From NCBI GenBank assembly GCA_965249135.1, contig OZ252220.1, positions 1,312,001 through 1,376,000 on the forward strand: a stretch of 64,000 nucleotides of DNA. Reading direction: 5' to 3'. The notes below the pieces were generated by a model. That model saw nothing but the letters and a program-made list of their open reading frames with translations. It was not told the origin of the DNA and searched no databases. Positions 20,089 to 42,495 of the stretch are shown in pieces (the stretch's first letter is position 1; every line of letters starts with the position of its first letter). The DNA comes from Alphaproteobacteria bacterium. Its GTDB lineage: Bacteria; Pseudomonadota; Alphaproteobacteria; GCA-2746255. Both the position numbers and the translations under genes were made by a program.

Positions 20089-21243
20089 TCAATAGGGAAC
20101 GGCGATCCGCCCGATGCGCTCGCGGGCGATGACGATCTTCTGGATCTGGGCAGTGCCGTCGCCGATCTCGAGGCCTATGACGTCGCGCAGGCGTTGCTGA
20201 TGGGCCATGTCCTTCGAATAGCCGGAGTGGCCGTGGAGCAGCAGGCATTGGTGAAGGGTGTCGAAGGCAAGTTTCGGCGCCCACCATTTGCACATCGCCG
20301 CTTCCGAGGTGTGCGGCAGGCCCCGATCGCGCAACCAAAGCGTCTTGTAGCAAAGGAGCCGGCAGGCCTCGTAATGGGTCTCCGCCTCGGCCAGTGGAAA
20401 GGTGACCCCTTCGAACTTGGCAAGCGGCGCGCCGAAGGCCTCGCGCTCCTGAATGTAGGCCCAGGTCTCATCGAGAGAGGCGCGCGCGGCGCCTAAGCAT
20501 TGCAAGCCGATGAGCGCGCGGGAGAAATCGAAGCCCTGCATGATCTGGGTGAAGCCGGCGTCTTCCTCGCCGAGCAGGGCGTCGCCTTCGACTTTTACGT
20601 CGTCGAAGAAAAGGGAGCCGCGGCCTACGATCGTCGAGCCCAGATCGTCGAACCGGGTGCGGGTGATGCCGGGCTGGTCAAGCTCGACGAGGAAGGCGCT
20701 CACCCCCTTCGCGCCCGCCTTCTCGCTCCCCGTTCGGCCGAAGACGATGGCGATGTCGGCCTGATCGGCGGCCGAGACCGAGGTCTTCTCGCCGTTAAGC
20801 AAATAGCCGTTTCCGGAACGCTTAGCCTTCAACTTTAATTTCGCCGCGTCCGAGCCCACGCCCGGCTCGGTCAGAGCGAGTGCGATGAGCGCTTCGCCGC
20901 GGGCGATTTTCGGTACCCATTCTTTCGCGACGTCGGGCTTGGCATGTTCGGCAAGCAAGCCGGCGAGAAGGGATCCCAGCAGCGGCAGGTAGGAAAGGTT
21001 GAAATCCCCAAACGCGACGCCTTCCGTGATGAGGCCGGTGGTCACCGAGCTGGCCGTCATGCCGCCAAGGCTTTCCGGCACGTTCGGCGCCATCATGCCG
21101 AGCGCGCCCATCTCGCGAGCCAATGCGCGGTCGAACACGCCTTCCTTTTCGCGCTTCATGTAATCGGGGCTCAAGCGCTCGCGGGCGAAGCGCAGCACGC
21201 TTTCGTAAAGGGCGGCCTGCTCGTCGGTGAAGGAAAAATCCAC
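20089..21243 (-). CDS. aliB: Acyl-CoA dehydrogenase, cyclohexanecarboxyl-CoA dehydrogenase-like (AliB/BadJ)
   Basis: ACAD motifs (ALTEPGVGSDA, EIGDGTAQIQK); GEKTSVSAADQAD, MQGFDFSRALIGLQCLG and AAMCKWWAPK match my recollection of the AliB subfamily. Confidence 0.8.
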   Translation of the reverse strand: MDFSFTDEQAALYESVLRFARERLSPDYMKREKEGVFDRALAREMGALGMMAPNVPESLGGMTASSVTTGLITEGVAFGDFNLSYLPLLGSLLAGLLAEHAKPDVAKEWVPKIARGEALIALALTEPGVGSDAAKLKLKAKRSGNGYLLNGEKTSVSAADQADIAIVFGRTGSEKAGAKGVSAFLVELDQPGITRTRFDDLGSTIVGRGSLFFDDVKVEGDALLGEEDAGFTQIMQGFDFSRALIGLQCLGAARASLDETWAYIQEREAFGAPLAKFEGVTFPLAEAETHYEACRLLCYKTLWLRDRGLPHTSEAAMCKWWAPKLAFDTLHQCLLLHGHSGYSKDMAHQQRLRDVIGLEIGDGTAQIQKIVIARERIGRIAVPY

Positions 21244-26378: not shown

Positions 26379-27178
26379 TGGCGCGGCGTGCGCCCGCGCT
26401 AGAACCGGGCGTGCCGCGCTACCGCGCCGTCGCCGCGGCGCTGGGCCGGGCGATTGCCAGCGGCGAGCACGCCGTCGGCGCGATGCTGCCGCCCGAGAAG
26501 ACGCTGTGTGCCACCTTCGGCGTCAGCCGGCACACGATCCGCGAGGCCATTCGGCTGATCGAATCGGAAGGCCTAGTGACGCGCCGCCAGGGCTCCGGCA
26601 CGACCGTGCGCCGTGCCGGGTCCGATGCGCGCTACGTCCAGTCCCTGGATTCCCTCGACGAGCTTTTGCAATACGCCGCCGAAACGAGGCTTCGCGTTCA
26701 CAAGACGCGCGAGATCGTCGTCGGAAGCGAAGCGGAACGCCGGCTGCTTGGCGCCGCCCTCGGCGAACGCTGGCTTCGCATCGAAGCGATACGCCTTGCC
26801 GGCGCCAGGGCCGGCGCCAGGGCCGGCGCCAGGAAGGATCTGCCGATCGCCTGGACGACGCTTTATCTGCCGGAACGATTCCGCGTCCTTCGCGAAACGA
26901 TCGGCGACGCCCATGAGGCCTGCGGGGCCCGCGAGGCCGTCTATCGCTTGATCGAGAAGCGTTTCGGGACGCGGATCGCCGAGGTCGAACAGGAAATCGG
27001 CGCCGCCGTCATCGAAGGCGGGATGGCGGAAAGGCTTGGCGTCGATCCCGGCACGCCCGGCCTTCGCATCACGCGGCGCTATCTCGACGTGGCCGGCGTG
27101 CCGCTGGAGGTCGCCGTGAACCTGCACCCGGCCGAGCGGTTCGCCTACCGGATGCGGCTACGGCGCGAGCGCGCCTAG
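26378..27178 (+). CDS. GntR (HutC/UTRA) family transcriptional regulator
   Basis: PRYRAVAAAL, LPPEKTLCATFGVSRHTIREAIRLIESEGLVTRRQGSGT HTH plus UTRA; ATG overlaps upstream TGA. Confidence 0.9.
   Translation: MARRAPALEPGVPRYRAVAAALGRAIASGEHAVGAMLPPEKTLCATFGVSRHTIREAIRLIESEGLVTRRQGSGTTVRRAGSDARYVQSLDSLDELLQYAAETRLRVHKTREIVVGSEAERRLLGAALGERWLRIEAIRLAGARAGARAGARKDLPIAWTTLYLPERFRVLRETIGDAHEACGAREAVYRLIEKRFGTRIAEVEQEIGAAVIEGGMAERLGVDPGTPGLRITRRYLDVAGVPLEVAVNLHPAERFAYRMRLRRERA
26798..26833 (+). repeat. 12-bp tandem repeat x3 (GCCGGCGCCAGG) encoding AGAR x3 inside the GntR gene
   Basis: Three exact copies at 26798, 26810, 26822. Confidence 0.9.
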
Positions 27179-29352
27179 CGGTAGTGCAGGACGCGGTATT
27201 TGTCGAACTCGATCCGCTTGCCCGGTGGAATGACGACGGTCGTCATCGGATCGCGGATGATGGCCGGGCCTTCGACGACGTTGCCGGCGGCAAGCGCCTC
27301 CATCTGCCAGACTTGAAAGTCCTGCCAGGCGTCTCGATGGAACACCTTGCGCGTCTCGACATACGCCGAATCGGTGGGCTTGGCCCCGGCCAGGGGGTGT
27401 TCGATGATCGCCGGCTGAGGCTTCGGGGCTACCGCCTGAATGTAAAGCTCGGTGATCGAATAGCCGGCGTCCGGGAAACGCGCGCCTTCCGGATAGATCT
27501 TCGTATACATGTCTTCGAAGGCGGCGACGATGCGATCGACGTCGGCCGCCGATTTCAGCGTGCCGAAATCGAGCGGCGTATCGAAGCTTTCGAGCTGGCC
27601 GAGATAGCGGACATAGGTGCCATAGCGGAAGGAAAGCTGTTTTAGGTCGACGCCTTCCTGCGCCATCTCGTCCTTGGCCGCCTGCTCAAGGCCGCGCCAG
27701 GACGCATCGAGCCGCTTCGCCATTTCCGCTTTCTCCGTTTCCTCCATGCCGTTCGGCACGAGTTCGACGAAGCCGCGATGGTAGCGATGCATGTATTCGG
27801 CGCAGGCCGCGCCGAAGGCCGAGAAGCCGGCTGCCCAGGGGAAGGTGATGACGTTGGCCAGGTCGATCCCTTCCGAATAGCCCCACATGTGGACGGGCCC
27901 GGCGCCGCCATAGCACAGCAAGGTGAAGTCGCGGGGGTTGTAGCCCTTCGAGGTGATCATCGTCGACGCCAGGTCGCGCATTTGCGTGTTGATGACCTCA
28001 AGCACGCCGCTGCCCGCCTCGTAGACGTCGAGGCCCAGCGGCTTCGCGATCACGCGCTCGAGTTCCGCATGGGCCCGGTCCTTGTCGAGCTTGACCTTGC
28101 CGCCCAGGAAATAGTCGGGATCGACGTAACCGAGGACGACATTGACGTCGGTGACGGTCAGGCGGTCGTATTTGTAGCAGATGCCGACATCGGCGCCGGC
28201 CGATTCGGGACCGACGCGCAGGCGCTTATAGGCGTCGATCTCGATCGCCGAACCGGCGCCGGAACCCGCCGAATCGATCGCCACCATCGGCAGCGCCAGG
28301 CGGTGCCCGGCGAAGTCGGCGTCCTTGCGAATGCCCAGCATGCCGTTGACCAGCAGACCCACGTCGAAGCTGGTGCCGCCCATGTCCGCCGTGATCGCGT
28401 TCTTGATGCCGAGCTTGTCGGCAAAAATCTGGGCGCCCATGAGCCCGCCGATGGGCCCGGAGATGATCGTCTCGTAAAGGCGCGGATAGTCCATGTTGAC
28501 GGCGCCGCCATAGGAAAGCAGCGTCAACAGCCGGCCGTCATAACCTTCCTTGACCGCCGCGTTCTCGACGCTGAGAAGGGATTCGCGCGTCAGTTCGGCC
28601 GCGAAGCATTGGATCAACAGGCTTTTCAGGCGATTGTTCTCGCGCGAAACCGGCGCGACGTCGGCGGAACAGACGACCGGAATCTTGCGCCCGCTTTTTT
28701 CGACGATCGCCTCGGCGATCCGCCGCGCGGTGTTCTCGTTCTCCGGGTTGACGTAGGAATTCAGGAACATGATGCCGATCACCTCGACGCCACCGGCGAG
28801 GAGGCGTTCCACGCCCTTGCGGACGTGGTCCTCGTTGACCGGGATCATGACCTCACCGGCGCCCATGTGGGACTGCATGAAATAGCTGCCGCCCGAGATG
28901 CGCTCGCTGATGCCGATGACGTTGCGCGGATCGACCATCGGGCGCGTGTGCTCGTGCAATTGCTGATGCAGGATTTCGGCCTGGGTCTGGCCAAGATAGG
29001 TGAGCCCGCCTTCCATGACGCTTATATGTTCGAACCCACGCGTCACCAGAAGGCCTACCTTGCGGCCGGTGCCGGTGAGAAGCGTGTTCAGCATGCCGGT
29101 GCCGGCGTAGATGGCGACGGAAGCTTGGCTGTGCACGTCCGTCGATTTCAGCCCCAGGGTCAGCGCCGCGTCTTCGACGGATTCGAGGTAGCTCGACGCC
29201 TCGTCTTTCCGGTTCGTCAGCGACTTGCCGATCGTGAAGTCGCCATCCGGCTTGACGAGGATCGTGTCCGTCATCGTTCCGCCTGCGTCAAGCGCGAGGA
29301 TGTAATTTTTTCCGTTCCCAGAAGAACCCGGTGACGCGGCGCCATTCGCCAT
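27175..29352 (-). CDS. Acetone-carboxylase-family beta (ATP-binding, AcxA/hydantoinase A-like) subunit
   Basis: LALDAGGTMTDT, YAGTGMLNTLL, ETIISGPIGG, ADMGGTSFD, GSGAGS, YGGAGPVH, GPAII; start ATG 29352 after GGGAG. Confidence 0.88.
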   Translation of the reverse strand: MANGAASPGSSGNGKNYILALDAGGTMTDTILVKPDGDFTIGKSLTNRKDEASSYLESVEDAALTLGLKSTDVHSQASVAIYAGTGMLNTLLTGTGRKVGLLVTRGFEHISVMEGGLTYLGQTQAEILHQQLHEHTRPMVDPRNVIGISERISGGSYFMQSHMGAGEVMIPVNEDHVRKGVERLLAGGVEVIGIMFLNSYVNPENENTARRIAEAIVEKSGRKIPVVCSADVAPVSRENNRLKSLLIQCFAAELTRESLLSVENAAVKEGYDGRLLTLLSYGGAVNMDYPRLYETIISGPIGGLMGAQIFADKLGIKNAITADMGGTSFDVGLLVNGMLGIRKDADFAGHRLALPMVAIDSAGSGAGSAIEIDAYKRLRVGPESAGADVGICYKYDRLTVTDVNVVLGYVDPDYFLGGKVKLDKDRAHAELERVIAKPLGLDVYEAGSGVLEVINTQMRDLASTMITSKGYNPRDFTLLCYGGAGPVHMWGYSEGIDLANVITFPWAAGFSAFGAACAEYMHRYHRGFVELVPNGMEETEKAEMAKRLDASWRGLEQAAKDEMAQEGVDLKQLSFRYGTYVRYLGQLESFDTPLDFGTLKSAADVDRIVAAFEDMYTKIYPEGARFPDAGYSITELYIQAVAPKPQPAIIEHPLAGAKPTDSAYVETRKVFHRDAWQDFQVWQMEALAAGNVVEGPAIIRDPMTTVVIPPGKRIEFDKYRVLHYR

Positions 29353-29408
29353 GGATAAAGTCTCCCTGTTCGAAAAAACGTCCGGCAATCGGACGCATCG
29401 GGCTTTTT

Positions 29409-29975
29409 TTAAGCTTTGCCCTTGGCCCAGCCGGCCGTTAATTCATGTGTCCGGTCCTGGTACCAGTCCGGCTTCGCATCGGAAAGTGGCCGCTCGACAA
29501 AATCCCGGTAGAAACGGTCGAGATCGGGCAGCATCTCGAAGACGATCGGGTAGCCCGGCGGCACGACCTCGACCGCAAGCTGCGCCGCGCAGCCCGGGCA
29601 ATAGAATTCACGAATAACGACCCACTCCGGATCGGGACACGCTTGGGAGGGGTAGTAGATCTCCTCGATCTCCTCCGGCGTCTCGCGCAGGCGAATAAGG
29701 GCGCTTAGTTTCCAATTCGCCCGGTAGTCGCCGAATTCCTGGCCGCAGTCGCATTTCACGACGCGATCGCCGTTTTCCTTACGCACGATGTAAAGATGAT
29801 CGGCAATCCGAAGAAGAATCGTATCGTCCCACGGCATGCGTTCCTGCAGGGCTTCGAGATAGGTCCAGAACCGTTCCGGGTCCTTTTGATCCATCTTGAG
29901 GAGCGAACGCGCGTCCTCGCGGCTGATCGTGCCTTCGATGAGCTGTTCGACGAGCCCTTTGTCCACCTTCGCCAT
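29409..29975 (-). CDS. Acetone-carboxylase-family gamma (Zn-binding, AcxC-like) subunit
   Basis: KDPERFWTYL, VKCDCGQEFGDYRANWKL, REFYCPGC (four Zn cysteines), PGYPIV..PDLDRFYRD. Confidence 0.9.
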   Translation of the reverse strand: MAKVDKGLVEQLIEGTISREDARSLLKMDQKDPERFWTYLEALQERMPWDDTILLRIADHLYIVRKENGDRVVKCDCGQEFGDYRANWKLSALIRLRETPEEIEEIYYPSQACPDPEWVVIREFYCPGCAAQLAVEVVPPGYPIVFEMLPDLDRFYRDFVERPLSDAKPDWYQDRTHELTAGWAKGKA

Positions 29976-29985
29976 GGGTCTGCTC

Positions 29986-32220
29986 CTAAACCGCGAAGTC
30001 GGAATCGAGGGACCAGAAGCCGCGGAATTCGCGATCGAACTTCGCGAAACTCATCGAGCCGCGGTACATGTCCGCGACCGCCTGGCTGAAATCACGGTCC
30101 AGCACCTTGCGGCGCTCGTCCCGCCACCATTCGGAAACCGGGCGCGCCTTGGCAAGCCGCTGCGCGCGGATCGCGGTGCGCTTTTCCTTCGTCGCCGCCT
30201 CGTCGAGCGTCCACGTGCCGTCGTCGCCCTGGCTCGCGACGATGCCATAGACGCGGGCCGCGTGCGCGTAAGGCACCCAGCTCATGTCGAGGTCCTCGAG
30301 GATGAGCTTCGTGTCCCGCTCGATCGGGTCGCCCCAACCGCCCGACGCACCGGCCGCGTTGGCCCACAAATCGTTGTGCCGCATCTCGAGTTCCGGCGGG
30401 TCGTAGTTCCAGACTTTCAGGTCGTCGACCTTGAGCGTGCCGTCCGCGGCCTGCTCGATCAACTCAAGGGCGTTGCGCGGCGTCTCGCCGCTGTCTTGAA
30501 TGATCGTGTCAATATTCGTGCCCTGAGCCGTAACGGTGAAGGCGTTCGGCGGCGGGTAGCCGCCGCTCATGCCGATGCCGAGGAAGGTCGTGATCGCGGT
30601 GCCGCCGCCGCTGTGACTGACGCCCAGGCGCTGGCCAGGCTCGACCATCCAATGGACGGAGGACTGACCGAGGCCGCCGCGATACTTCCCATGGCCACAG
30701 AAGCCCGGCAGCAGCGACCGGCCAAAGTAGAAGAAGGGCGGGATCAGATATTCGAATTCCTCGGCATTGCCGACATTCGAGAGCTGCGTCCACTCGGCCC
30801 AGCACATGGGCTCGCCGTCGCGGTAGCAGTAGGCGCCCTGGGAGACGCCGCCGACCCATTCGAAATTCGTGAAGCCGTAAGGCGTGCCGTCCTCGAGCAC
30901 GCCGGAGCCCTGCACGCCCTCCCAGTCGCCGTCCGTCGTGAAGGCCTCTTCCATGTAGCCGCGGGCAAACATGGCGCGGTTCATCGCGTTGAAGGCGAGG
31001 CTGTTCATCATGACGGATTGTGCCCAGATGACGGCGCTGCTGGCGAATTCGTTGTCCGGGTTGTAGAGGCAGCCTTTCGGATACTTGCTCTCGACGGCAA
31101 GGTTGATCGCCGCCGTCACCTTCGTGTTGTGGGAGAAGGTGTTCACCATGCTGAGATAAAGCGCGCAATCGGCGCCGCCCGGAAAGCCGTTGAAGGCGTG
31201 ATAGCCCCAGCGCGACGTGCCCTCCATGTCGACGACGACGCGGCCGCGATCGTCGATATCCAGGCTCTGGCGCACATGGAGCAGATGGTCCCGATCGGCG
31301 TGCGGCCAGATCTGTTGCATGCCTTTGTATTTCGCGATCCGGAAGGCACAGCCATTCTGCGTACCGGGAATCATGAGGGAATGGATGTTGTCCATGATCC
31401 GCTGGCGGCTTTCTTCGATGATTTCGCGAATCGCGCGGCGATAGTAATCGTAGCCGAACTCATCGATGATTTCGTGGATGGCCTTGTGAACCATCGCGCA
31501 GCCGGCAAGACGCATCTTGTCGTCGAGGATGTTGAGCGCCGCCGCCCGCGTGCGCCGTTTCCAAAGCGAATTCCACCAGGTCGCCTGACGAAGATTCTCG
31601 CCCGTCTTCATCGGTGGGAAGACGAACCCGTCCATGAAGGTGTCGACGCAGAAGCTTGGCCAGCTGCCGGCGACCGGCGCGCCGGCCTCCATGATGTGGT
31701 TGAGGCCGACCGCCCAGCCGACGACTTCGCCCTCGACGACGATCGGCACGTAACAATAGGTGTCGCCCGGATGGGGAGCGCCGCCCGTCAGGCCGTCATC
31801 CGTCATGAAGACGTCGCCGTCATTGATGCCGGGATTGTCCTCGTAGCCTTCTTCGATCATGTAGCGCACGGCCACCGGCATCGCCGCGCAATGGGAGAAG
31901 AAGCCGAGCGAGAGGGCCAGCGAATCGCCTTCCGGCGTCGTCAGCGCCCAGAGCGATTCGCCCATCTCGCGGCCGCCGGGGCTGGCGGCGACGTAACGGG
32001 CCACCTCGCGCGCCGCCAGCACGCAGGAATGAATGCGCGAATAGAACCGCTCGTATTTGACCGGGTCCGAATCGCGAAGCGTAAGCTCGGTGACACCGTA
32101 ATAATGGCCGGTCTCTTCCGTAAGCCGGTCCCGCTGCTCCAGCATCTCGCGCAGCGTAAGGCCGCCTTCTCCGGAAGCGGCTGCCTCTTCGCGCCGAATG
32201 GGCTTCGTGACTACGTTCAT
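29986..32220 (-). CDS. Acetone-carboxylase-family alpha (metal-binding, AcxB/hydantoinase B-like) subunit
   Basis: AASPGGREMGE, GFFSH, NPGINDGDVF, HPGD, NHIME, GHGKYRGG, GGWGDPIERD; N-terminal 'TGHYYG..LTLRDSDP' typical of AcxB rather than generic HyuB. Confidence 0.88.
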   Translation of the reverse strand: MNVVTKPIRREEAAASGEGGLTLREMLEQRDRLTEETGHYYGVTELTLRDSDPVKYERFYSRIHSCVLAAREVARYVAASPGGREMGESLWALTTPEGDSLALSLGFFSHCAAMPVAVRYMIEEGYEDNPGINDGDVFMTDDGLTGGAPHPGDTYCYVPIVVEGEVVGWAVGLNHIMEAGAPVAGSWPSFCVDTFMDGFVFPPMKTGENLRQATWWNSLWKRRTRAAALNILDDKMRLAGCAMVHKAIHEIIDEFGYDYYRRAIREIIEESRQRIMDNIHSLMIPGTQNGCAFRIAKYKGMQQIWPHADRDHLLHVRQSLDIDDRGRVVVDMEGTSRWGYHAFNGFPGGADCALYLSMVNTFSHNTKVTAAINLAVESKYPKGCLYNPDNEFASSAVIWAQSVMMNSLAFNAMNRAMFARGYMEEAFTTDGDWEGVQGSGVLEDGTPYGFTNFEWVGGVSQGAYCYRDGEPMCWAEWTQLSNVGNAEEFEYLIPPFFYFGRSLLPGFCGHGKYRGGLGQSSVHWMVEPGQRLGVSHSGGGTAITTFLGIGMSGGYPPPNAFTVTAQGTNIDTIIQDSGETPRNALELIEQAADGTLKVDDLKVWNYDPPELEMRHNDLWANAAGASGGWGDPIERDTKLILEDLDMSWVPYAHAARVYGIVASQGDDGTWTLDEAATKEKRTAIRAQRLAKARPVSEWWRDERRKVLDRDFSQAVADMYRGSMSFAKFDREFRGFWSLDSDFAV

Positions 32221-32372
32221 GGATGCCCCCTTCGCTCCCCCGAGCGGCCGGGCGCCGCCCGAAAACCAAGGCGCTCATGCTCCCACAAATGGGGGAAGGC
32301 GGCAAGGCATCCTGCGCGAGGGGCGCACGCTTTAAGCTTGCGATACTTAAGGAAATTTACCACTTTGGCCCG

Positions 32373-33548
32373 ATGGCGAGCGCGGCAAGCCCGTTGTTTT
32401 CCCCCTTCGAGCTCAGAGGCATCCGGCTTTTGAACCGCCTCGTTCTCTCGCCGATGGTCGTCTACTACGCCAAGGACGGCTTCTCGAACGACCTGCTTTT
32501 CTCCCATCTTTCGAAATTCGTGATCGGCGGCTTCGGCCTGGTGTTCACGGAAGCCGCCGCCGTCGAGGAGCGCGGCCGCATCAGCCATGGCGATCTCGGC
32601 ATCTGGAAGGACGAACACATCGCGCCTTTGCGCCGTTTTACGGATTTCGCCCGCGCCCATGGGGCGCTTTCCGGATTGCAGCTTGCCCATGCCGGCCACA
32701 AGGGGAGCTACCAGCGCGCCTATGAGGGCTATCGGCCGTTGGGAGAGAAGGACGCCCAACGCGGCGATCCTCCTTTCGAAACGATCGCGCCTTCACCGAT
32801 GGCTTACGGAGCAGGCGTGCCGGCCCCGCGCGCCATGACGCTTGCCGACATCGCAGACGTGCAGGAAGCCTGGCGCAAGGCGGCGCTCCGCGGCGTTGCG
32901 GCCGGCTTCGACGTGCTCGAGATTCACGGAGCGCATGGTTATTTGATCCATGAATTTCTTTCGCCGCTTACCAACGAACGAAGCGACGGTTACGGCGGCG
33001 ACCTTAAGGGACGCATGCGGTTTGGGCTGGAAATCGCGGAGAGCCTTCGCGAGGTGTGGCCCGACGACAAGCCGGTTTCCTTTCGGTTCTCCGTCATCGA
33101 CGGCGTCGACAAGGGGTGGGGAATCCAGGATTCGATTGCGTTCGTAAACGAATTAAAGAAGATCGGCATCGATCTGGTGGACTGCACGTCGGGCGGCACC
33201 GCGAAGCTTACGCGCGAAGACGCGCTTCCCCGCGAGCCCGGCTTTCACGTGCCATTGGCCGAAATCTTGCGCAAGGAAACCGGCATGGCGACGATCGTCG
33301 TCGGGCTGATCACGGAACCGGCCCAGGCAGACGCCATCCTGCGCGATGGGCGGGCCGACCTGATCGCCATTGGACGGGCGGCGCTGGACGATCCGAACTG
33401 GCCCTTGCATGCCTCCCTCGAGCTTGGTTCAAAGCTCGACTATTCGGCCTGGCCGCCGGAATATGGCTGGTGGCTGGAACGCCGCGCGAAGACGGCCGCG
33501 AAGATGGCCGCGAAGATGGAAGTCGAGCCGAAGACGAACAAGAAGTGA
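32373..33548 (+). CDS. Old Yellow Enzyme, YqjM/XenA-like NADH:flavin oxidoreductase
   Basis: NRLVLSPM, EAAAVEERGRIS, QLAHAGHK, EIHGAHGYLIHEFLSP, GRAALDDPNW; start ATG 32373. Confidence 0.9.
   Translation: MASAASPLFSPFELRGIRLLNRLVLSPMVVYYAKDGFSNDLLFSHLSKFVIGGFGLVFTEAAAVEERGRISHGDLGIWKDEHIAPLRRFTDFARAHGALSGLQLAHAGHKGSYQRAYEGYRPLGEKDAQRGDPPFETIAPSPMAYGAGVPAPRAMTLADIADVQEAWRKAALRGVAAGFDVLEIHGAHGYLIHEFLSPLTNERSDGYGGDLKGRMRFGLEIAESLREVWPDDKPVSFRFSVIDGVDKGWGIQDSIAFVNELKKIGIDLVDCTSGGTAKLTREDALPREPGFHVPLAEILRKETGMATIVVGLITEPAQADAILRDGRADLIAIGRAALDDPNWPLHASLELGSKLDYSAWPPEYGWWLERRAKTAAKMAAKMEVEPKTNKK
33486..33519 (+). repeat. Imperfect 12-bp tandem repeat x3 (GCGAAGA(C/T)GGCC) at the OYE C-terminus
   Basis: Units at 33486, 33498, 33510 encode AKTA-AKMA-AKME. 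Confidence 0.7.
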
Positions 33549-33556: not shown

Positions 33557-35515
33557 TTATGCCTTCGCCTTCGCGCGCAATTCCTCAAGCGCGGCCGGGT
33601 TCACGAGCGAGCTTAAGTCGCCCGGCTCAACGCCTAGATAGGTGGCGCGCACGACGCGGCGCATGATCTTCATCGAGCGCGTCTTCGGAAGGTCGGAAAC
33701 GAAGACGACGTCCTTGGGGCGGAACGCCTTGCCGTGGCCGGTGACGACCGCCTCGATCAAGGTGGTCTTTAAGTCCTCGTCCGCCGTTATGCCTTCGCCC
33801 GGCACGCAGACGCAGACGACGGCCGATCCTTTGATTTCGTCCGGCACGCCGATGGCGGCGGCCTCGCGAATGAGGCCGGTTTCCAGCACGATGCCCTCGA
33901 TCTCGGCCGGGCCCGTCCGCTTGCCGGCGACTTTAAGGGTATCGTCCGAGCGGCCAAGGACGTACCACATGCCGTCTTCGTCGATCGCCGACCAGTCGCC
34001 ATGCCGCCACAGACCTGGAAAGGTGCGCCAGTAGGTGTCGAGGTAGCGTTCCGGATCCTTCCACAGCCCCCGGGTGAGACCGATCGAGGGAAGGTTCATC
34101 ACCAGCTCGCCGACCTGGCCGGATGCGATCGGCTTTCCCTCCTCATCGACGACGCTGGCCCCCATCGCCGGCAGGGGGGCGTTGAAGGAGCGGGGCTTCA
34201 AGGGGCGGGTGACGATGCTGCCGATGATCCCACCACCGATTTCGGTGCCGCCGGAATAATTCAGGATCGGTACCTTCTGCTTGCAGACATGGGCGAAGAA
34301 CCAGTGCCATGCATCCGGCGTCCACGGCTCGCCGGTGGTGACCGTGATGCGAAGCCGGGAGAGATCGTAGTGTTCGACGACGTCCGTCCCTTGCGCCATG
34401 AAGATGCGGACGATGGTCGGCGCGATCCCCAAATAGCTGACCCGATAGTCCTGCATCAGGCGCCAGATGCGCCCCTGGTCCGGATAGTCGGGCGTGCCTT
34501 CGGCCAGGATGAGCGTGGCACCCATCGCACCGGCGAGCAGGATCTGGAAGGGACCGACGATCCAGCCCATGTCCGTCATCCAAAGCAGGCGATCGCTTTC
34601 CTTGAAGTCCTGACAGAGCACGAGGTCGATGATGATCTTCGTATAAAGGCCGCAATGGGTATGGACGGTTCCCTTCGGCTTGCCGGTCGTGCCGGAGGTA
34701 TGGACGACCATGAGGGTGGCTTCCGCATCCACGGGTTCCGTCGGCGCCTCCATCGGCGCATCGGCCAGAAGTTCGTGCCACCAATGGTCGCGTGTCTTGT
34801 CCCATGGCACCGGATCGTCGAGATGTTTGAAGACGACGACGTCGGTGACGCTTGGGATGTCGGCAAGGGCCGCATCGAGGGTCGCCTTCATCGGCACGCG
34901 TTTGCCGCGACGAAGGGCGCCATCCACCGCGATCACCGCCTTCGCCTCGCAATCATTGAGACGCACGGCGATCGCCTGCTTGCCGAAGCCGGAGAAGAGC
35001 GGCACGACGATGCCGCCTATCTTGGCGATGGCAAGGAAGGCGGCCGCGACCTCGAGGCCGAGCGGCATGAAAAGGCCGATCGCATCCCCCGGTCCAAGCC
35101 CCAATCGGCGAAGTGCGGTGGCAAGGCGCGAGACTTCCGCGTCGTATTCCGCATAGGTCCATTTGCGCTTGCGCCCATCCTCGCCTTCCCAGACGAGCGC
35201 ATCCTTGTTCCAGATTGCCGTATCGCGGTGCTTGTCGAGCGCGTTCAGCACGACGTTCGTCGTGCCGCCGACGCACCAACGCGCGTGCTCGATGCCTCCT
35301 GAGGTGTCGAGAATCTGCGTATAGGGTTGAAAGAAGCGAATGCCGTAATGGCGGATGACGGCGTCGTTGAACCATTCCGGGTCTTCGTTCGAGCGCGCAA
35401 GCAGCGCCGCAAAGTCGGGCAGGTTTTCCGCCCGCAGAAAGGCGGTGAGGTTGCTTTTCTCCTGGATCTCCGGCGATGGCCGCCAGGCGATCGGTTCCGT
35501 TGCAAAATCTTCCAC
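33557..35515 (-). CDS. AMP-forming acyl-CoA synthetase (acetate/acetoacetate-CoA ligase-like)
   Basis: HTSGTTGKPKG, TDMGWIVGP, TGEPW, SGGTEIGG, GRSDDTLKVAGKR, LPKTRSMKIMRR. Confidence 0.92.
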   Translation of the reverse strand: MEDFATEPIAWRPSPEIQEKSNLTAFLRAENLPDFAALLARSNEDPEWFNDAVIRHYGIRFFQPYTQILDTSGGIEHARWCVGGTTNVVLNALDKHRDTAIWNKDALVWEGEDGRKRKWTYAEYDAEVSRLATALRRLGLGPGDAIGLFMPLGLEVAAAFLAIAKIGGIVVPLFSGFGKQAIAVRLNDCEAKAVIAVDGALRRGKRVPMKATLDAALADIPSVTDVVVFKHLDDPVPWDKTRDHWWHELLADAPMEAPTEPVDAEATLMVVHTSGTTGKPKGTVHTHCGLYTKIIIDLVLCQDFKESDRLLWMTDMGWIVGPFQILLAGAMGATLILAEGTPDYPDQGRIWRLMQDYRVSYLGIAPTIVRIFMAQGTDVVEHYDLSRLRITVTTGEPWTPDAWHWFFAHVCKQKVPILNYSGGTEIGGGIIGSIVTRPLKPRSFNAPLPAMGASVVDEEGKPIASGQVGELVMNLPSIGLTRGLWKDPERYLDTYWRTFPGLWRHGDWSAIDEDGMWYVLGRSDDTLKVAGKRTGPAEIEGIVLETGLIREAAAIGVPDEIKGSAVVCVCVPGEGITADEDLKTTLIEAVVTGHGKAFRPKDVVFVSDLPKTRSMKIMRRVVRATYLGVEPGDLSSLVNPAALEELRAKAKA

Positions 35516-35547: not shown

Positions 35548-36651
35548 TCACGCCGCCCCGGATGTCTCCAGCGCCGGATAGTCCGTGTAGCCCTTCGCAT
35601 CCCCCCCATAGAAGGTGGCAGGGTCCGCTTCGGCGAGGGCCGCCCCCAGCTCAAGCCGATGGACAAGATCGGGGTTGGCGAGAAAGGGGCGTGCGAAGGC
35701 GACCAGATCGGCGCGGCTTTCCGCGATGGCGGCCTCGGCGCGCGCGCCGTCATAGCCGCCATTCGCCAGATAGGGCCCATTGAAGGCCTCGCGCATGGCC
35801 GGCCAGTCGAAGGCGGCGGCTTCGCCGACCAGGTTCACCTCGACGACGTGGAGATAGGCGAGCTTCTGCCTGCCAAGCATGGAGGCGATGGCCGGGAAGG
35901 TCGTCTCGGGCGCGCTGTCCTTTATATCGTTGAAGGCATTGACCGGCGAAAGCCGCACACCGATGCGGTCCGCACCCCACACATCTGCGACGGCTTCGAC
36001 CACGTCGTGCAGAAGCCGCGCGCGGTTTATCAGCGAACCACCGTAACGGTCTTCCCGGTGGTTCGTGCCGTCGCGCAGGAACTGGTCGAGCAGGTAGCCA
36101 TTCGCCGCGTGGATTTCGACGCCGTCGAAGCCCGCCTGCTTGGCGTTTTCGGCGGCCTTTCGGAATTGCGCGAGGATGCCGGGGATCTCGTCGGTGTTAA
36201 GCGCCCTGGGCGTCACGAAAGGTTGCGGGCCGTCATAGGTGATCGCCTCTCCTTGCGCGCGGATGGCGGAAGGGGCTACGGGAAGCTCGCCGTCCGGCTG
36301 AAGCGAAGGGTGCGAGATGCGCCCGACATGCCAAAGCTGCAGGAAGATGCGCCCGCCTTCCTCATGCACGGCGTCCGTCACGCCCCGCCAGCCCGCCACC
36401 TGTTCCGCCGAATGGATGCCAGGCGTCGCCGGATAGCCGAACCCTTGCGTCGAGATTTGCGTTGCCTCCGTGATGATCAGCGCCGCATTTGCGCGCTGCC
36501 GGTAATAGGTGACGTTTAAGTCTTGGGGCACGTTGCCGGGCCCGGCGCGGTTCCGCGTCATCGGCGCCATGACGATGCGATGGGGAAGTTTGAGCGGTCC
36601 CAATTGCAGCGGCGTGAAAAGATGGGGAAAGGGCTGCTTCGTCATCGTCAT
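35548..36651 (-). CDS. Old Yellow Enzyme, classical NemA-like alkene (ene) reductase
   Basis: IVMAPMTRNRA, QLWHVGRISH, EIHAANGYLLDQFL, FLANPDLV, KGYTDYP. Confidence 0.93.
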   Translation of the reverse strand: MTMTKQPFPHLFTPLQLGPLKLPHRIVMAPMTRNRAGPGNVPQDLNVTYYRQRANAALIITEATQISTQGFGYPATPGIHSAEQVAGWRGVTDAVHEEGGRIFLQLWHVGRISHPSLQPDGELPVAPSAIRAQGEAITYDGPQPFVTPRALNTDEIPGILAQFRKAAENAKQAGFDGVEIHAANGYLLDQFLRDGTNHREDRYGGSLINRARLLHDVVEAVADVWGADRIGVRLSPVNAFNDIKDSAPETTFPAIASMLGRQKLAYLHVVEVNLVGEAAAFDWPAMREAFNGPYLANGGYDGARAEAAIAESRADLVAFARPFLANPDLVHRLELGAALAEADPATFYGGDAKGYTDYPALETSGAA

Positions 36652-37400
36652 GCCGCCGTGTAGCCGCCGTCGACGACGAACTCGGCGCCATCGACGTAGG
36701 AGGATTCGTCGGAAGCAAGGAAAAGAACCACGTTTGCCACTTCCTCCGGCTTACCGGCGCGGCCTAAGATGGTCGGGCCAAGGATATGCTTTTCCAGTTC
36801 CGGATCGTCGCTGATGGCGGCCGTCATCGGCGTCTCAATAAGGCCCGGGTGCACGGAATTCGAACGGATGTTGTGGGCTGCGTATTCCACGGCGACGGAT
36901 TTCGTAATCAACCGCACGCCGCCTTTCGAGGCCTGGTAGGCGGCCGCGTTGGCGACCCCGATCATGCCGTACATCGAGGAGATGTTGATGATGGAGCCGG
37001 CTCCTGCCTTCTTCATGGCAGGCAGGATGGCCTTGCAGCCAAGAAAGACGCCCCGCAGATTGACCGCAAGGGTGCGATCGAATTCGTCGGCGGAGGTTTC
37101 CTGGATCGGTTTGTAGATGAGGATGCCGGCATTGTTGACCAGCACGTCGACCTTGCCGTACTCGCCGATCGCCTTGTCGACGACGGCTTGCCATTCGCCT
37201 TCGCTGGTCACGTCCAAGGGTAGGAAGATGGCCTCGCCGCCTTCTTGCTTGATGGCCTCGACGACGGCCTTGCCTTCCTTGTCGGCGATGTCGGTGACGA
37301 CGACCTTCGCCCCTTCGCTCGCCAGGACCTGCGCATCGGCCTTGCCCATGCCCATGGCGCCGCCCGTAACCAGCGCGACCTTGCCTTCTACGCGCCCCAT
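36648..37400 (-). CDS. SDR, cyclopentanol/cyclic-alcohol dehydrogenase (CpnA)-like
   Basis: MGRVEGKVALVTGGAMGMG, NNAG, S-YxxSK, VHPGLIETPMT, LGPTILGRA, VVDGGYTA; closely matches my recollection of Comamonas CpnA. Confidence 0.8.
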   Translation of the reverse strand: MGRVEGKVALVTGGAMGMGKADAQVLASEGAKVVVTDIADKEGKAVVEAIKQEGGEAIFLPLDVTSEGEWQAVVDKAIGEYGKVDVLVNNAGILIYKPIQETSADEFDRTLAVNLRGVFLGCKAILPAMKKAGAGSIINISSMYGMIGVANAAAYQASKGGVRLITKSVAVEYAAHNIRSNSVHPGLIETPMTAAISDDPELEKHILGPTILGRAGKPEEVANVVLFLASDESSYVDGAEFVVDGGYTAA

Positions 37401-37450: not shown

Positions 37451-38386
37451 TCAAGCGCTCCGCCGGACGATGTTCGGCATGCTGACGACGTCCTGGCATT
37501 CGCCATAGCCGATCCGGCCGTCCATGTTCCATTCCATCAGCGTGGCGAAATCGCAGGTGTTCGGCCAACACATCCACGGGAATCCCGTCATCGCACTGCC
37601 CGTGAAGTGGTAGGTCCGATCTTGGACGTCGGTCACCTCGACGTTCATGCCGACCTGCATGAGGCCATCCCGCGTCGAGTGGCCCTTGCCGCTCTTTAGC
37701 CCGTAGACCTTTCCGTTCTCCAGCACGTAGCCATGGGCAAACGGGCTCAACACCTCGGCATTTAAGGGATCGAAGCCGAAGATGCAGTGGATGGTCATCT
37801 CGCGGCCGAAGCTCACATGGAACCAGCTGGCGGAAGGGTAGTCGGCTTCCGGCCGCGGTCCCCAACTGTGATCCATCGTCGAGACGGAATCGATCTTGTA
37901 GCTTTTGCCTTTTACCTTGAGCGTGCCCTTGAAATGGCCCGTCTGGTCGAAGTGGCCCTTGATCGGCTTTTCCTTCGGCGCGTTGGGGTCCATCTCCGGG
38001 TCCGTGATGTCATAGGGCGGCATGAGCCCTTCGAACTCGACGTGAAACTCGGTGTCGTTCTTTCCCTTATAGGTCAACAGATAGTCCATCGGCGGGTTCA
38101 CGGCCTTTACGGAAAGGCCGTTGCCGAGCGCGTAGTCCCCAACCTTCTCCGGCAAGGGCAGGTGGGCGTGCTCGTCGTAGTAGAGCGCCTCGATGCGGTG
38201 CTTCGGGAAGCCCTGGACGACCTGGACGCTGGAAAGCACGACGCCAAGGGTGGGACGCGAGAGAAAATAGATGCCGACGTTGATCTTCTCTTCCGGGATA
38301 TTGAAGCCGAAGAAGTTCGTCTCCGCCCAAAGCGGATCGCCATCCGCCGGGATGTGAAATTCCATGATGTCGTTTACCGAGATCAT
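37451..38386 (-). CDS. Uncharacterised 311-aa protein, probable CrtC/AttH/tocopherol-cyclase-like double beta-barrel
   Basis: WAETNFFGF, GHFDQTGHFKGTLKVKG, MDHSWGPRP, GYGECQD; beta-rich and soluble; GGGGAGG RBS; tightly spaced within the badI operon. Confidence 0.6.
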   Translation of the reverse strand: MISVNDIMEFHIPADGDPLWAETNFFGFNIPEEKINVGIYFLSRPTLGVVLSSVQVVQGFPKHRIEALYYDEHAHLPLPEKVGDYALGNGLSVKAVNPPMDYLLTYKGKNDTEFHVEFEGLMPPYDITDPEMDPNAPKEKPIKGHFDQTGHFKGTLKVKGKSYKIDSVSTMDHSWGPRPEADYPSASWFHVSFGREMTIHCIFGFDPLNAEVLSPFAHGYVLENGKVYGLKSGKGHSTRDGLMQVGMNVEVTDVQDRTYHFTGSAMTGFPWMCWPNTCDFATLMEWNMDGRIGYGECQDVVSMPNIVRRSA

Positions 38387-41699: not shown

Positions 41700-41704
41700 A
41701 CGCG

Positions 41705-42495
41705 ATGGCGTACGAGACGATCCGATACGAGACGGACGACCGCGGTGTGTGCCGGCTGACGCTGGCGCGTGCCTCCGTTCACAACGCGATGAATGCGGAG
41801 CTCATCGCAGAAATGAGGGACGCGGCGAAGCGGATCGCGAAGGACGAAAGTGTGCGCGCCGTCGTGCTGACCGGCGAGGGGGAAAGCTTCTGCGCCGGTG
41901 GGGATTTGCGCTGGATGCAGGCGAACGTGAATGCGACGCGCGAAGAGCGCATGGCGGCGGCGGGCGAGATCGCGGAGATGCTGTTTGCGCTGGATACGTT
42001 GCCCAAGCCGCTCATCGGGCGGATCAACGGACCGGCCTATGGCGGGGGGACGGGTTTAATCTCCGTCTGCGACGTGGCCATTGGGGTCGCAGGCGCCCGG
42101 TTCGGGCTGACGGAAGTCCGGCTTGGCCTCGTGCCGGCGACGATTTCGCCTTACGTCGTCCGGCGAATGGGGCATGCGAATGCGCGGCGGGTCTTTTTCA
42201 GCGGCCGGCTTTTCCAGGCAGACGAGGCAAAGGCGCTCAACCTCTTAAGCGAGGTCGTCGCGCCCGAAAATCTGGACGCGGCCGTTGATGCAGAGCTTGC
42301 GGCATGCCTTCAAGCCGCCCCCGGCGCGATTGCCGCCACCAAGCGCCTCGTCGATTACGTGGCTCGCCATGGACCGGAAGAGAACCGCACCGCGACGCTA
42401 AACGCACTTGCCGATGTCTGGGAGACGGAGGAAGGCAAGGAAGGGATTGGCACGTTCCTTAAGAAGCAGACGCCTTGGTGGCGGAAGGGAACGTC

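What the first reader, a model, noticed from the sequence alone, without database searches (positions are those of the whole stretch)
27175..32220. Divergent acetone-carboxylase-family enzyme with alpha-gamma-beta gene order and a remodelled active-site region
Seen: transcription order alpha (744 aa), gamma (188 aa, with a C-terminal tail), beta; canonical acxABC is beta-alpha-gamma. The alpha subunit keeps likely metal/catalytic residues (E in REMGE, H in GFFSH, H and D in HPGD, H in NHIME), but neighbouring residues differ strongly from my recollection of Xanthobacter AcxB (SPIVEQEGE -> SPGGREMGE; GIIIH -> GFFSH; NNDSLIGNVHPCD -> TDDGLTGGAPHPGD; GSMATG -> GSWPSF). No AcxR-type sigma54 activator is adjacent. 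Inference: a new-specificity clade for a bulkier ketone.
Basis: partly seen in the sequence, partly recalled or inferred. Interest (0 to 1): 0.75.

Follow-up and report, generated by a model that had tools for sequence, protein, structure and literature searches.

The report
Divergent ketone carboxylase beside ring-opening genes
Three genes encode an intact but strongly divergent relative of acetone carboxylase that sits beside genes for opening six-membered carbon rings, so it may add CO2 to a cyclic ketone such as cyclohexanone rather than to acetone, a reaction not yet described.

Summary
Three minus-strand genes at 27175-32220 encode alpha (744 aa), gamma (188 aa) and beta (725 aa from the likely ATG) of an acetone-carboxylase-type enzyme, in the order alpha-gamma-beta. 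Identity to canonical acetone carboxylase is 32/45/38 %.

All four metal ligands (E88, H150, D153, H175), the gamma Cys4 site and the beta adenine-stacking Phe are kept. The residues around them differ, and those differences are fixed across 120 relatives.

In trees, alpha falls in a well-supported clade inside a large uncharacterised group that excludes the canonical acetone carboxylases. No sigma-54 activator is present; GntR- and TetR-family regulators flank the genes.

The "bulkier ketone" idea is only indirectly supported. The conserved neighbours are:
- an old-yellow-enzyme (OYE) ene-reductase;
- an acetyl-CoA-synthetase-like ligase with an altered acyl pocket;
- a BadI-type 2-ketocyclohexanecarboxyl-CoA hydrolase;
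- further off, an AliB-type dehydrogenase.

This suggests cyclic ketone -> 2-oxocyclohexanecarboxylate -> CoA ester -> ring hydrolysis. The BadI link is seen only in close relatives. Pocket volume could not be computed, and acetone remains a live rival. My reading: a new variant of a known enzyme kind, of moderate-to-good interest, and directly testable.

The parts
29986..32220 (-). alpha subunit (744 aa), Hydantoinase_B-type, carries the predicted Mn/Fe site (E88, H150, D153, H175)
   Evidence: PDB 5svb_A E 2.2e-109. The AF2 model has pLDDT 93 and TM 0.92-0.93 to 5m45_A/5svc_A. The ligands are 100 % conserved in 120 clade sequences.
29409..29975 (-). gamma subunit (188 aa), Acetone_carb_G, Cys4 Zn-ribbon plus a clade-specific C-terminal tail of about 20 aa
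   Evidence: 5svb_C E 8.4e-43. Alignment A2 shows the cysteines and the tail motif PDWY.D.T conserved in the window and L001-L004.
27175..29352 (-). beta subunit (725 aa from the likely ATG; the ORF runs on to a TTG at 29388), Hydantoinase_A-type ATP-binding subunit
   Evidence: 5svb_B E 3.5e-163. One search gives the start by comparison with L001/L002 and shows F427 = XaAC F405, T413 = S391 and E600 = N578.
26381..27178 (+). GntR/UTRA (HutC-type) regulator, convergent with beta (start codon not fixed). The 184-aa minus-strand ORF at 26573-27127 is its antisense artefact.
   Evidence: Pfam GntR E 3.2e-21 and UTRA E 3.9e-15. Orthologues lie after beta in L001 and L002. The antisense ORF is only 55 % identical between genomes whose beta subunits are 92 % identical.
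32221..32373 (.). 153-bp divergent intergenic region between alpha and the OYE gene; presumed promoters
   Evidence: Sequence read. No sigma-54-like -24/-12 match here.
32374..33548 (+). old-yellow-enzyme (YqjM/NamA-like) ene-reductase, divergent from alpha
   Evidence: Pfam Oxidored_FMN E 8.5e-66. NamA 314 bits against a cutoff of 431. Same position and orientation in L001 and L007.
33557..35515 (-). Acs-like acyl-CoA ligase (ACAS_N + AMP-binding), candidate beta-keto-acid-CoA ligase
   Evidence: below all equivalog cutoffs. One search shows the motif NYSGGTEIG opposite DTWWQTETG of an acetate-CoA ligase. Orthologues lie next to alpha in L001 and L007. Eight contig-length matches with alpha relatives.
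35548..36651 (-). second OYE (N-ethylmaleimide-reductase-like)
   Evidence: NF007899 403.2 bits against a cutoff of 403.
36648..37400 (-). short-chain dehydrogenase, candidate alicyclic alcohol dehydrogenase
   Evidence: Best NCBIfam hit is 4-hydroxycyclohexanecarboxylate dehydrogenase ChcB1, 265 against a cutoff of 400.
37451..38386 (-). DUF7064/DUF7065 protein of unknown function in the same operon
   Evidence: Atlas neighbours are DUF7064/7065 clusters, some with the Tocopherol_cycl Pfam family on 11-21 % of members.
38426..39208 (-). BadI-type 2-ketocyclohexanecarboxyl-CoA hydrolase (crotonase family)
   Evidence: TIGR03210 463.5 bits against a cutoff of 467.6. 75-78 % identical to many proteins that NCBI/JGI name BadI. 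The orthologue lies directly upstream of the ligase in L007.
39404..40042 (+). TetR-family regulator (TetR_C_24 type)
   Evidence: The same type sits next to the cluster in L007 and next to beta in L004.
20089..21243 (-). AliB-type cyclohexanecarboxyl-CoA dehydrogenase at the edge of the same catabolic island
   Evidence: TIGR03207 578.5 bits, above the cutoff of 575.35.
40098..44496 (+). methylcrotonyl/geranyl-CoA-carboxylase-like pair (carboxyltransferase 40098-41699; biotin carboxylase/BCCP 42475-44496)
   Evidence: Pfam Carboxyl_trans, CPSase_L_D2 and BT_MCC_alpha. The carboxyltransferase orthologue is in L007.

Best explanation
The three genes encode a working ATP-dependent, biotin-independent ketone carboxylase of the acetone-carboxylase architecture (alpha-beta-gamma). 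It belongs to a separate, uncharacterised clade.

**Mechanism, by analogy with the Xanthobacter enzyme**
- Beta binds ATP and phosphorylates the ketone enolate and bicarbonate.
- The two intermediates travel through an internal channel to a Mn/Fe site in alpha (E88, H150, D153, H175), where the C-C bond forms and a beta-keto acid is released.
- Gamma is a Zn-ribbon structural subunit.

**What is shown and what is inferred**
- Shown here: conservation of these parts. Catalysis itself is inferred.
- My further inference from the neighbours is that the substrate is an alicyclic six-ring ketone: cyclohexanone or a substituted or terpenoid cyclohexanone.

**Proposed pathway**
1. The SDR and the OYE reductases deliver the saturated ketone from the alcohol or enone.
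2. The carboxylase makes 2-oxocyclohexane-1-carboxylate.
3. The adjacent Acs-like ligase traps this labile acid as its CoA ester.
4. The BadI-type hydrolase opens the ring to a pimeloyl-CoA-type product for beta-oxidation.

**Regulation and odds**
- Expression is probably controlled by the flanking GntR- or TetR-family repressors rather than by a sigma-54 activator.
- My odds are about 0.85 that it is a functional ketone carboxylase of a distinct clade, and about 0.4 that the substrate is alicyclic.
For: **Enzyme identity and conserved catalytic parts**
- Full-length similarity of all three subunits to PDB acetone carboxylase, and a structural match at TM 0.92-0.93.
- The four Mn ligands named in PMC5543143, including E89, shown essential in PMC12250083, are 100 % conserved in 120 clade sequences.
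- The gamma Cys4 site is kept. Beta F405 is kept.
- Compensated interface pair: the XaAC cross-subunit pair alpha-E85/beta-N578, which gates the metal site, reads alpha-R84/beta-E600 in the window. Beta has Glu at this position in 4 of 4 clade betas. Alpha has Arg in all 120 clade alphas. This argues that the allosteric switch is maintained.

**Distinct clade under selection**
- Trees place it apart from the canonical group.
- 14 positions are fixed-different and 92 are invariant in both groups.
- Two of the four outer-sphere tryptophans that PMC10865871 says restrict access to the metal (W408, W438) are Asn and Gly here.

**Gene context**
- BadI-type hydrolase at 463.5 bits against a cutoff of 467.6, and AliB-type dehydrogenase above its cutoff.
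- In L007 the operon is simply BadI-ligase, next to OYE and alpha. That is the minimal set for ketone -> keto acid -> CoA ester -> ring opening.
- The ligase has Ser-Gly where acetate-CoA ligase has Trp-Trp.
- Alpha and ligase relatives share the same longest-contig length in 8 cases, down to 53 % alpha identity.
Against: **No direct evidence**
- There is no biochemical data, and no pocket volume was computed.

**The BadI link is narrow**
- The BadI association is seen only in the window and one 90 %-identical MAG (L007). These are not independent observations.
- L001 (89 %) is cut before that position.
- L004 (70 % identity) has TetR, two other crotonases (31-32 % to BadI) and an SDR, but no BadI orthologue or ligase in its 17.5 kb.
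- The BadI homologue list was saturated by 75-78 % relatives. It shared no contig length with alpha relatives apart from the window-like genome, so it could not test co-occurrence.
- BadI and AliB could belong to an ordinary cyclohexanecarboxylate pathway that merely lies nearby.

**Acetone is not excluded**
- A neighbouring Acs/acetoacetate-ligase-like gene fits acetone -> acetoacetate -> acetoacetyl-CoA equally well.
- PMC13677872 shows that a highly divergent homologue still carboxylates acetone.

**Weak points in the supporting data**
- The contig-length match is a proxy, not an observed adjacency.
- The fixed residue changes include both larger and smaller side chains.
Confidence: 0.42

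Rival explanations
1. It is an acetone (and butanone) carboxylase isoenzyme with a rearranged operon. The neighbouring ligase activates acetoacetate, and the alicyclic-CoA genes are unrelated neighbours.
For: - All catalytic parts of the acetone enzyme are conserved.
- The ligase matches acetoacetate-CoA ligase models, though below their cutoffs (NF002937 385.6 against 639).
- PMC13677872 (abstract and passages) shows that an Apc-like, very divergent enzyme is an acetone carboxylase.
- JGI names several clade members 'acetone carboxylase alpha subunit'. These are automatic names.
Against: - The clade is separated from the canonical group by several well-supported branches.
- 14 positions are fixed-different, including residues next to the ligands.
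- No sigma-54 AcxR is present.
- The ligase is in one operon with a BadI-type ring hydrolase in two genomes.
- PMC13714315 (passage) states that deeper-branching AcxB clades are of uncertain specificity.
Confidence: 0.25
2. It carboxylates another non-cyclic ketone, for example a longer aliphatic or isoprenoid methyl ketone. The product feeds the island's acyl-CoA dehydrogenases, dienoyl-CoA reductase and the methylcrotonyl/geranyl-CoA-carboxylase-like enzyme.
For: - The island holds an MCC/GCC-like carboxylase, three acyl-CoA dehydrogenases, a FadH-like reductase, an epoxide hydrolase and a DUF7064/65 protein. The Atlas neighbours of that DUF protein partly carry the tocopherol-cyclase Pfam family.
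- The ligase pocket residue change fits acyl groups larger than acetate.
- Homologous carboxylases accept C5-C6 ketones (PMC13677872).
Against: - This reading leaves the BadI-type hydrolase in the ligase operon unexplained.
- There is no thiolase or 3-oxoacyl-CoA-specific enzyme next to the ligase.
- That branched-chain handling enzymes imply terpenoid substrates is my own inference.
Confidence: 0.2
3. It is not a carboxylase but an ATP-dependent hydrolase of the hydantoinase/oxoprolinase/caprolactamase kind, acting on a cyclic amide.
For: - The Pfam families are shared with those enzymes.
- NCBIfam caprolactamase alpha gives 344 bits for the beta-type subunit.
- The PDB caprolactamase and N-methylhydantoinase are distant structural matches.
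Against: - A gamma subunit is present. PMC13677872 (passage) states that this subunit is specific to Acx/Apc carboxylases.
- The best sequence and structure matches are acetone carboxylase by a wide margin (369.8 against 52.8 bits for alpha; TM 0.93 against 0.66).
- Scores for the CapA/CapB equivalogs are far below their cutoffs.
- No amine or amide-handling genes are nearby.
Confidence: 0.05

Closest known systems
Acetone carboxylase AcxABC of Xanthobacter autotrophicus Py2 (PDB 5svb/5svc/5m45) and its close relatives (here M. extorquens CM4 pCMU01 and C. sphaeroides loci)
   Same: - Same three subunit types.
- Same fold (TM 0.92-0.93).
- Same four metal ligands, the gamma Cys4 Zn site and the beta adenine-stacking Phe.
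- The mechanism is presumably the same.
   Different: - Identity is only 32/38/45 % for alpha/beta/gamma.
- Gene order is alpha-gamma-beta, not beta-alpha-gamma.
- GntR- and TetR-family regulators flank the genes instead of a sigma-54 AcxR.
- Alpha lacks the roughly 30-aa C-terminal extension (744 against 776 aa). Gamma has an extra tail.
- The Mn-proximal segment PIVEQE reads PGGREM.
- There is a one-residue insertion before H150.
- H155->Y, M187->W, G190->F, R194->T, W408->N, W438->G.
- The interface pair E85/N578 becomes R84/E600.
- It forms a separate clade.
Deeper-branching AcxB-like clades of unknown specificity noted in PMC13714315
   Same: That paper's passage describes AcxB homologues that branch outside the validated clade yet lie closer to acetone carboxylase than to hydantoinase or acetophenone carboxylase. 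This is the same situation as here.
   Different: I did not see its Fig. 2a or supplements, so I cannot say whether this exact clade is in that tree. The paper assigns no function or gene context to those clades.
Acetophenone carboxylase Apc (PDB 5l9w) and the Rhodococcus Acr acetone carboxylase (PMC13677872)
   Same: Same superfamily, ATP-dependent ketone carboxylation, and a gamma-type small subunit. Acr shows that the substrate range can extend to C5-C6 ketones.
   Different: - Those enzymes have two HydA-type subunits plus an epsilon subunit. The window has one HydA-type gene and no epsilon candidate.
- Sequence matches are far weaker (127.5 bits for alpha; ApcD model 150 against a cutoff of 1500).
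- TM is 0.79.
BadI pathway of cyclohexanecarboxylate / benzoate degradation (Rhodopseudomonas palustris type; named from NCBIfam TIGR03210/TIGR03207)
   Same: The window has a BadI-type hydrolase and an AliB-type dehydrogenase. The proposed product of carboxylase plus ligase is exactly BadI's substrate.
   Different: In the known pathway (recalled) the 2-keto-CoA ester is made from cyclohexanecarboxyl-CoA by dehydrogenase, hydratase and dehydrogenase steps, not by carboxylating a free ketone.

Membership tests
Acetone carboxylase (AcxABC type) | Three subunits: HydB-type alpha, HydA-type beta, Acetone_carb_G gamma | tested here: met
   Pfam; PDB matches to all three chains of 5svb.
Acetone carboxylase (AcxABC type) | Alpha metal ligands Glu89, His150, Asp153, His175 (PMC5543143) | tested here: met
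   Window E88, H150, D153, H175. All are 100 % conserved in 120 clade sequences.
Acetone carboxylase (AcxABC type) | Gamma Cys4 Zn site (Cys74, 76, 124, 127 in XaAC) | tested here: met
   All four cysteines align.
Acetone carboxylase (AcxABC type) | Beta nucleotide-site residues Phe405 and Ser391 | tested here: met
   F427 is conserved; S391 is Thr413, a conservative change.
Acetone carboxylase (AcxABC type) | Alpha groups with experimentally validated acetone carboxylases in a tree | tested here: not met
   the window clade (16 rows, support 100) lies in a 37-row group (99) that excludes the canonical group (6 rows, 100). Only the Xanthobacter-like references (L009, L010) stood in for validated enzymes.
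Acetone carboxylase (AcxABC type) | acxABC gene order (beta-alpha-gamma) with an adjacent sigma-54 activator AcxR | tested here: not met
   The window and L001-L004 have alpha-gamma-beta. No sigma-54 activator or promoter was found. The canonical layout is seen in L009 and L010.
Acetone carboxylase (AcxABC type) | Acetone/butanone-dependent ATP hydrolysis and acetoacetate formation | not testable with these tools
   Needs an enzyme assay.
Acetophenone carboxylase / heterodecameric Acr type | Two HydA-type subunits plus an epsilon subunit; NCBIfam Apc equivalogs | tested here: not met
   Only one HydA-type gene. ApcD 150 against 1500, ApcC 332 against 1500, ApcB 51 against 250.
Hydantoinase / 5-oxoprolinase / caprolactamase (two-subunit ATP-dependent hydrolases) | HydA + HydB only, no gamma; match to CapA/CapB or related equivalogs | tested here: not met
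   A gamma gene is present. CapA 344 against 1000 and CapB 61 against 1000. PDB caprolactamase 52.8 bits for alpha.
BadI, 2-ketocyclohexanecarboxyl-CoA hydrolase (neighbour gene 38426-39208) | Score at or above the TIGR03210 equivalog cutoff | tested here: inconclusive
   463.5 against 467.6 bits. It scores better than the MenB models and is 75-78 % identical to many proteins named BadI by their sources.

The most novel reading that the evidence does not exclude
This is the first ATP-dependent alicyclic-ketone (cyclohexanone-type) carboxylase. Together with a dedicated 2-oxocyclohexanecarboxylate-CoA ligase and a BadI-type hydrolase, it defines an oxygenase-independent route from cyclohexanol/cyclohexenone/cyclohexanone (or monoterpene ketones) to pimeloyl-CoA. 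This route would differ from both the Baeyer-Villiger route and the 1,3-dione route. The wide alpha-gamma-beta clade (Cycloclasticus, Paenibacillus, Paradesulfitobacterium, many MAGs) would then mark this capacity in nature.
Probability: 0.35. Interest if true: 0.8.

Novelty: new variant of a known kind. Interest (0 to 1): 0.6.

Why it matters
Characterised acetone carboxylases of this three-subunit type accept only acetone and butanone (PMC13677872, passage). Automatic annotation nevertheless calls many relatives 'acetone carboxylase'.

If this clade acts on cyclic ketones, three things follow:
- It would add a new CO2-fixing C-C bond-forming reaction and a new ring-cleavage route for alicyclic compounds such as solvents, naphthenic compounds and monoterpenes.
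- It would correct a widespread misannotation in marine and groundwater metagenomes.
- It would give biocatalysis a biotin-free way to make cyclic beta-keto acids.

The compensated alpha-R84/beta-E600 pair also offers a natural test of the proposed allosteric switch of acetone carboxylase.

Tried and rejected
- **Close relatives on plasmids.** 79 plasmid records matched, all at 33.3 % identity or less. They served only as canonical references.
- **Genome-contig scan.** Contexts of the 52-65 % relatives could not be fetched.
- **BadI co-occurrence by contig length.** The top 120 BadI hits were all 62-98 % relatives of a very large family. None shared a contig length with alpha relatives apart from the window-like genome, so the test was uninformative.
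- **The 184-aa ORF after beta as a possible fourth subunit.** Rejected. It has no family, is low-complexity, is 55 % conserved where neighbours are about 90 %, and lies antisense to a GntR gene.
- **Plus-strand ORFs that I first called in L004 (11526-12560, 13141-15042).** Rejected as spurious. The real genes lie on the other strand.
- **Canonical AcxB among the 50 %-cluster representatives.** Only a 295-aa fragment (P0194) stands for it. P0154 and P0157, tested against the PDB, were not it.
- **Net side-chain size at the 14 fixed-different positions.** The changes go both ways, with no clear sign of enlargement.
- **Literature searches** (PMC open-access plus bioRxiv):
  - 'acetone carboxylase-like': 0 papers.
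  - 'cyclohexanone' + 'acetone carboxylase': 1 paper, by its title and abstract about root-nodule metabolomics of Paraburkholderia.
  - 'cyclohexanone carboxylase', 'carboxylation of cyclohexanone', 'cyclic ketone carboxylase': 0 occurrences among the 20 listed of 31 papers; those listed were synthetic or medicinal chemistry.
  - 'acetone carboxylase' + 'monoterpene': 0 papers.
  - 'acetone carboxylase' + 'pimeloyl-CoA': 1 genome paper.
- **The DUF7064/65 protein.** It was not folded, because I had no homologue alignment left to support a model.

Full report
**What is in the sequence**

Three adjacent minus-strand ORFs fill the reported interval exactly: 29986-32220 (744 aa), 29409-29975 (188 aa) and 27175-29388 (737 aa from a TTG). 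Pfam assigns them to Hydantoinase_B, Acetone_carb_G and the three Hydantoinase_A domains. They are therefore the alpha, gamma and beta subunits of an acetone-carboxylase-type enzyme, transcribed in that order. The gaps are 10 and about 56 nt, which fits one operon. Comparison with orthologues puts the beta start at the ATG 12 codons downstream (27175-29352, 725 aa).

**Comparison with solved structures and curated models**

- The best PDB matches for all three proteins are the Xanthobacter autotrophicus acetone carboxylase chains: alpha E 2.2e-109, beta 3.5e-163, gamma 8.4e-43.
- Acetophenone carboxylase, caprolactamase and N-methylhydantoinase match far more weakly.
- All NCBIfam equivalog models for acetophenone carboxylase and caprolactamase score far below their cutoffs.
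- An AlphaFold2 model of alpha (56-sequence alignment, pLDDT 93, pTM 0.90) superposes on 5m45_A/5svc_A at TM 0.92-0.93. The values for Apc delta and caprolactamase are 0.79 and 0.66.

**Reference for 'canonical'**

I could not use remembered sequences, so I took annotated plasmid loci.
- M. extorquens CM4 pCMU01 (L009) and C. sphaeroides (L010) both show a sigma-54 regulator followed by beta, alpha and gamma.
- The L009 alpha matches 5svb_A over residues 1-776 at 1620 bits, so its numbering equals the crystal structure's.
- Against L009 the window proteins are 32 % (alpha), 38 % (beta) and 45 % (gamma) identical.

**Conserved catalytic parts**

- The passages of PMC5543143 that I read name alpha His150, Asp153, His175 and Glu89 as the Mn ligands.
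- PMC12250083 shows that a carboxylate at position 89 is essential.
- These ligands align with window E88, H150, D153 and H175. All four are 100 % conserved in the window plus 119 full-length relatives of 52-99 % identity.
- The gamma Zn cysteines are kept.
- Beta Phe405, which stacks on adenine, is kept (F427). Ser391 is Thr.

**Remodelled but conserved surroundings**

- The Mn-proximal segment PIVEQE is PG[G/S]REM.
- A proline is inserted before H150 in every clade member.
- Clade-fixed changes include H155->Y, M187->W, G190->F, Q193-R194->D-T and G196->M.
- In all, 14 positions are fixed in both groups but differ, and 92 are invariant in both.
- PMC10865871 describes four tryptophans as limiting access to the metal. 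W401 and W479 are kept, but W408 is Asn and W438 is Gly here.
- The cross-subunit contact alpha-Glu85/beta-Asn578, which PMC5543143 links to opening of the metal site, reads alpha-Arg84/beta-Glu600 in the window. Beta has Glu at this position in all four clade betas examined, and alpha has Arg in all 120 clade alphas. This looks like a compensated pair, and it argues for a working enzyme that keeps the same switch.
- Alpha lacks the canonical C-terminal extension of about 30 aa.
- Gamma carries a tail of about 20 aa that is conserved in the clade and absent from beta-alpha-gamma-type gammas.

**Phylogeny**

- A search of 1.84 billion cluster representatives found 2513 relatives (158 at E <= 1e-30). 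The window's own 50 % cluster is followed by a 46 % neighbour and then by about 40 full-length clusters at 29-42 %.
- A FastTree of 99 alphas and an IQ-TREE (LG+G4, SH-aLRT) of 67 alphas rooted on Apc-like sequences agree.
- The window protein sits in a 16-row clade (support 100), inside a 37-row group (99).
- The canonical references sit in a separate 6-row group (100), together with a haloarchaeal homologue.
- Limits of this test:
  - the rows were my own selection of full-length representatives (640-830 aa);
  - 67 of the 99 rows were re-used in the second tree, plus four plasmid references;
  - only SH-aLRT or SH-like supports were computed;
  - the Aromatoleum, R. capsulatus and Helicobacter enzymes were not available to me.
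- PMC13714315 (passage) independently notes deeper AcxB-like clades of uncertain specificity.

**Gene order and regulators**

- The order alpha-gamma-beta holds in the window and in all four related loci that show it: L001 and L002 at about 90 % identity, L003 and L004 at about 70 %.
- L008 (a Sinorhizobium paralogue clade), L009 and L010 are beta-alpha-gamma.
- No sigma-54 activator domain occurs among the 51 ORFs scanned, and no -24/-12 match lies upstream of alpha.
- A GntR/UTRA regulator instead converges on beta. It is conserved in L001 and L002.
- A TetR_C_24-type regulator lies nearby in the window, L007 and L004.

**Neighbourhood**

The genes lie in a catabolic island of about 29 kb (roughly 20-49 kb), between a cytochrome-oxidase operon and housekeeping genes.
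- Divergent from alpha is an OYE ene-reductase (true start 32374).
- Beyond it, a minus-strand operon encodes, in order:
  - a BadI-type hydrolase (TIGR03210 463.5 against a cutoff of 467.6);
  - a DUF7064/65 protein;
  - an SDR;
  - a second OYE;
  - an Acs-like ligase.
- An AliB-type cyclohexanecarboxyl-CoA dehydrogenase scores above its equivalog cutoff at 20089-21243.
- In the related MAG the operon is reduced to BadI-ligase, directly beside OYE and alpha (L007).
- The ligase has NYSGGTEIG opposite the DTWWQTETG motif of an acetate-CoA ligase. From memory, not from a call: the second Trp of that motif closes the acetate pocket in acetyl-CoA synthetases, and its replacement by Gly admits larger acids.
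- Relatives of alpha and of the ligase share the same longest-contig length in eight cases: 164108, 28540, 24723, 16493, 8577, 11095, 204626 and 56603 bp. This suggests, by proxy only, that the pairing extends down to about 53 % alpha identity.

**Interpretation**

The simplest reading that uses all conserved neighbours has four steps:
1. An enone or alcohol is converted to a saturated alicyclic ketone (OYE, SDR).
2. The ketone is carboxylated to a 2-oxocyclohexane-1-carboxylate.
3. This unstable acid is trapped as a CoA ester.
4. The ring is opened by the BadI-type hydrolase.

The MCC/GCC-like carboxylase, the epoxide hydrolase and the DUF7064/65 protein hint at methyl-branched (terpenoid) versions, but that is inference. 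My literature searches listed no biological report of such a carboxylase.

**Against this reading**

- The BadI link rests on the window and one 90 %-identical genome.
- L004 has other crotonases and no ligase in view.
- The BadI search could not test co-occurrence.
- A ligase next to the carboxylase also suits acetoacetate.
- A divergent homologue has recently been shown to be an acetone carboxylase (PMC13677872).
- Pocket and channel sizes were not computed, and the ketone is first handled in beta, not in alpha.

**What stayed unchecked**

- Contexts of distant clade members.
- The closed metagenome and viral contig collections.
- The figures and supplements of PMC13714315 and PMC13677872, which may already show this clade.

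**Verdict**

This is a new variant of a known enzyme kind with a concrete, testable substrate hypothesis.

Noticed in passing
L005 2814-3524 and L006 1706-2416 (Xanthobacter sp. contigs): Both hold only a 236-aa N-terminal piece of an alpha-like gene, 79 % identical to window alpha residues 22-239. tblastn found no gamma, beta or rest of alpha nearby, so this is probably a truncated remnant.
   Followed up: partly
L010 7327-7830 (C. sphaeroides plasmid gamma subunit): In the alignment this canonical-type gamma keeps only one of the four Zn-binding cysteines (VVKSHAG and CPLSG instead of C.C and CP.C), although its source annotates it as acetone carboxylase gamma.
   Followed up: no
L008 6980-9172 (Sinorhizobium meliloti pSymB alpha-like gene): This separate beta-alpha-gamma paralogue clade has Gln at the position of metal ligand His150. 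It also carries the Arg/Glu version of the alpha-85/beta-578 interface pair.
   Followed up: no
window 26573-27127 (-): A 184-aa, Ala/Gly/Arg-rich ORF with good GC3 is an antisense artefact of the GntR/UTRA regulator gene on the plus strand.
   Followed up: yes
window 33557-35515 versus alpha 29986-32220, compared with L001/L007 and the P0006-cluster contigs: The identities are mosaic. In L001/L007 alpha is 89-90 % identical but the ligase only 75-76 %. Contigs matched by length (11095 and 204626 bp) carry a 91-92 % ligase with an alpha from the 77 % cluster. This suggests that modules have been exchanged between cluster versions.
   Followed up: no
window 37451-38386 (-): A DUF7064/DUF7065 protein of unknown function sits inside the BadI-ligase operon. 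It is absent from L001-L007. Its ESM Atlas neighbours are DUF7064/65 clusters, a few with the tocopherol-cyclase Pfam family on 11-21 % of members.
   Followed up: partly
window 40098-44496 (+), with a 179-aa ORF at 41749-42288 in between: An MCC/GCC-like carboxyltransferase and biotin carboxylase are split by a family-less 179-aa ORF. They are followed by an acyl-CoA dehydrogenase, an SDR, a family III CoA-transferase and an epoxide hydrolase. This is an unusual set, not the standard Liu or Atu order as I recall it.
   Followed up: no
L004 10870-14847: The 70 %-identical gammaproteobacterial cluster is followed by a TetR gene, a crotonase whose best hit is the 'oxepin-CoA hydrolase, alternative type' model (161 against a cutoff of 300), an SDR that also matches the BadH model (169 bits against a 431 cutoff, below several generic SDR models), and an EchA19-like crotonase. 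This may be a different downstream module for the same kind of enzyme.
   Followed up: partly
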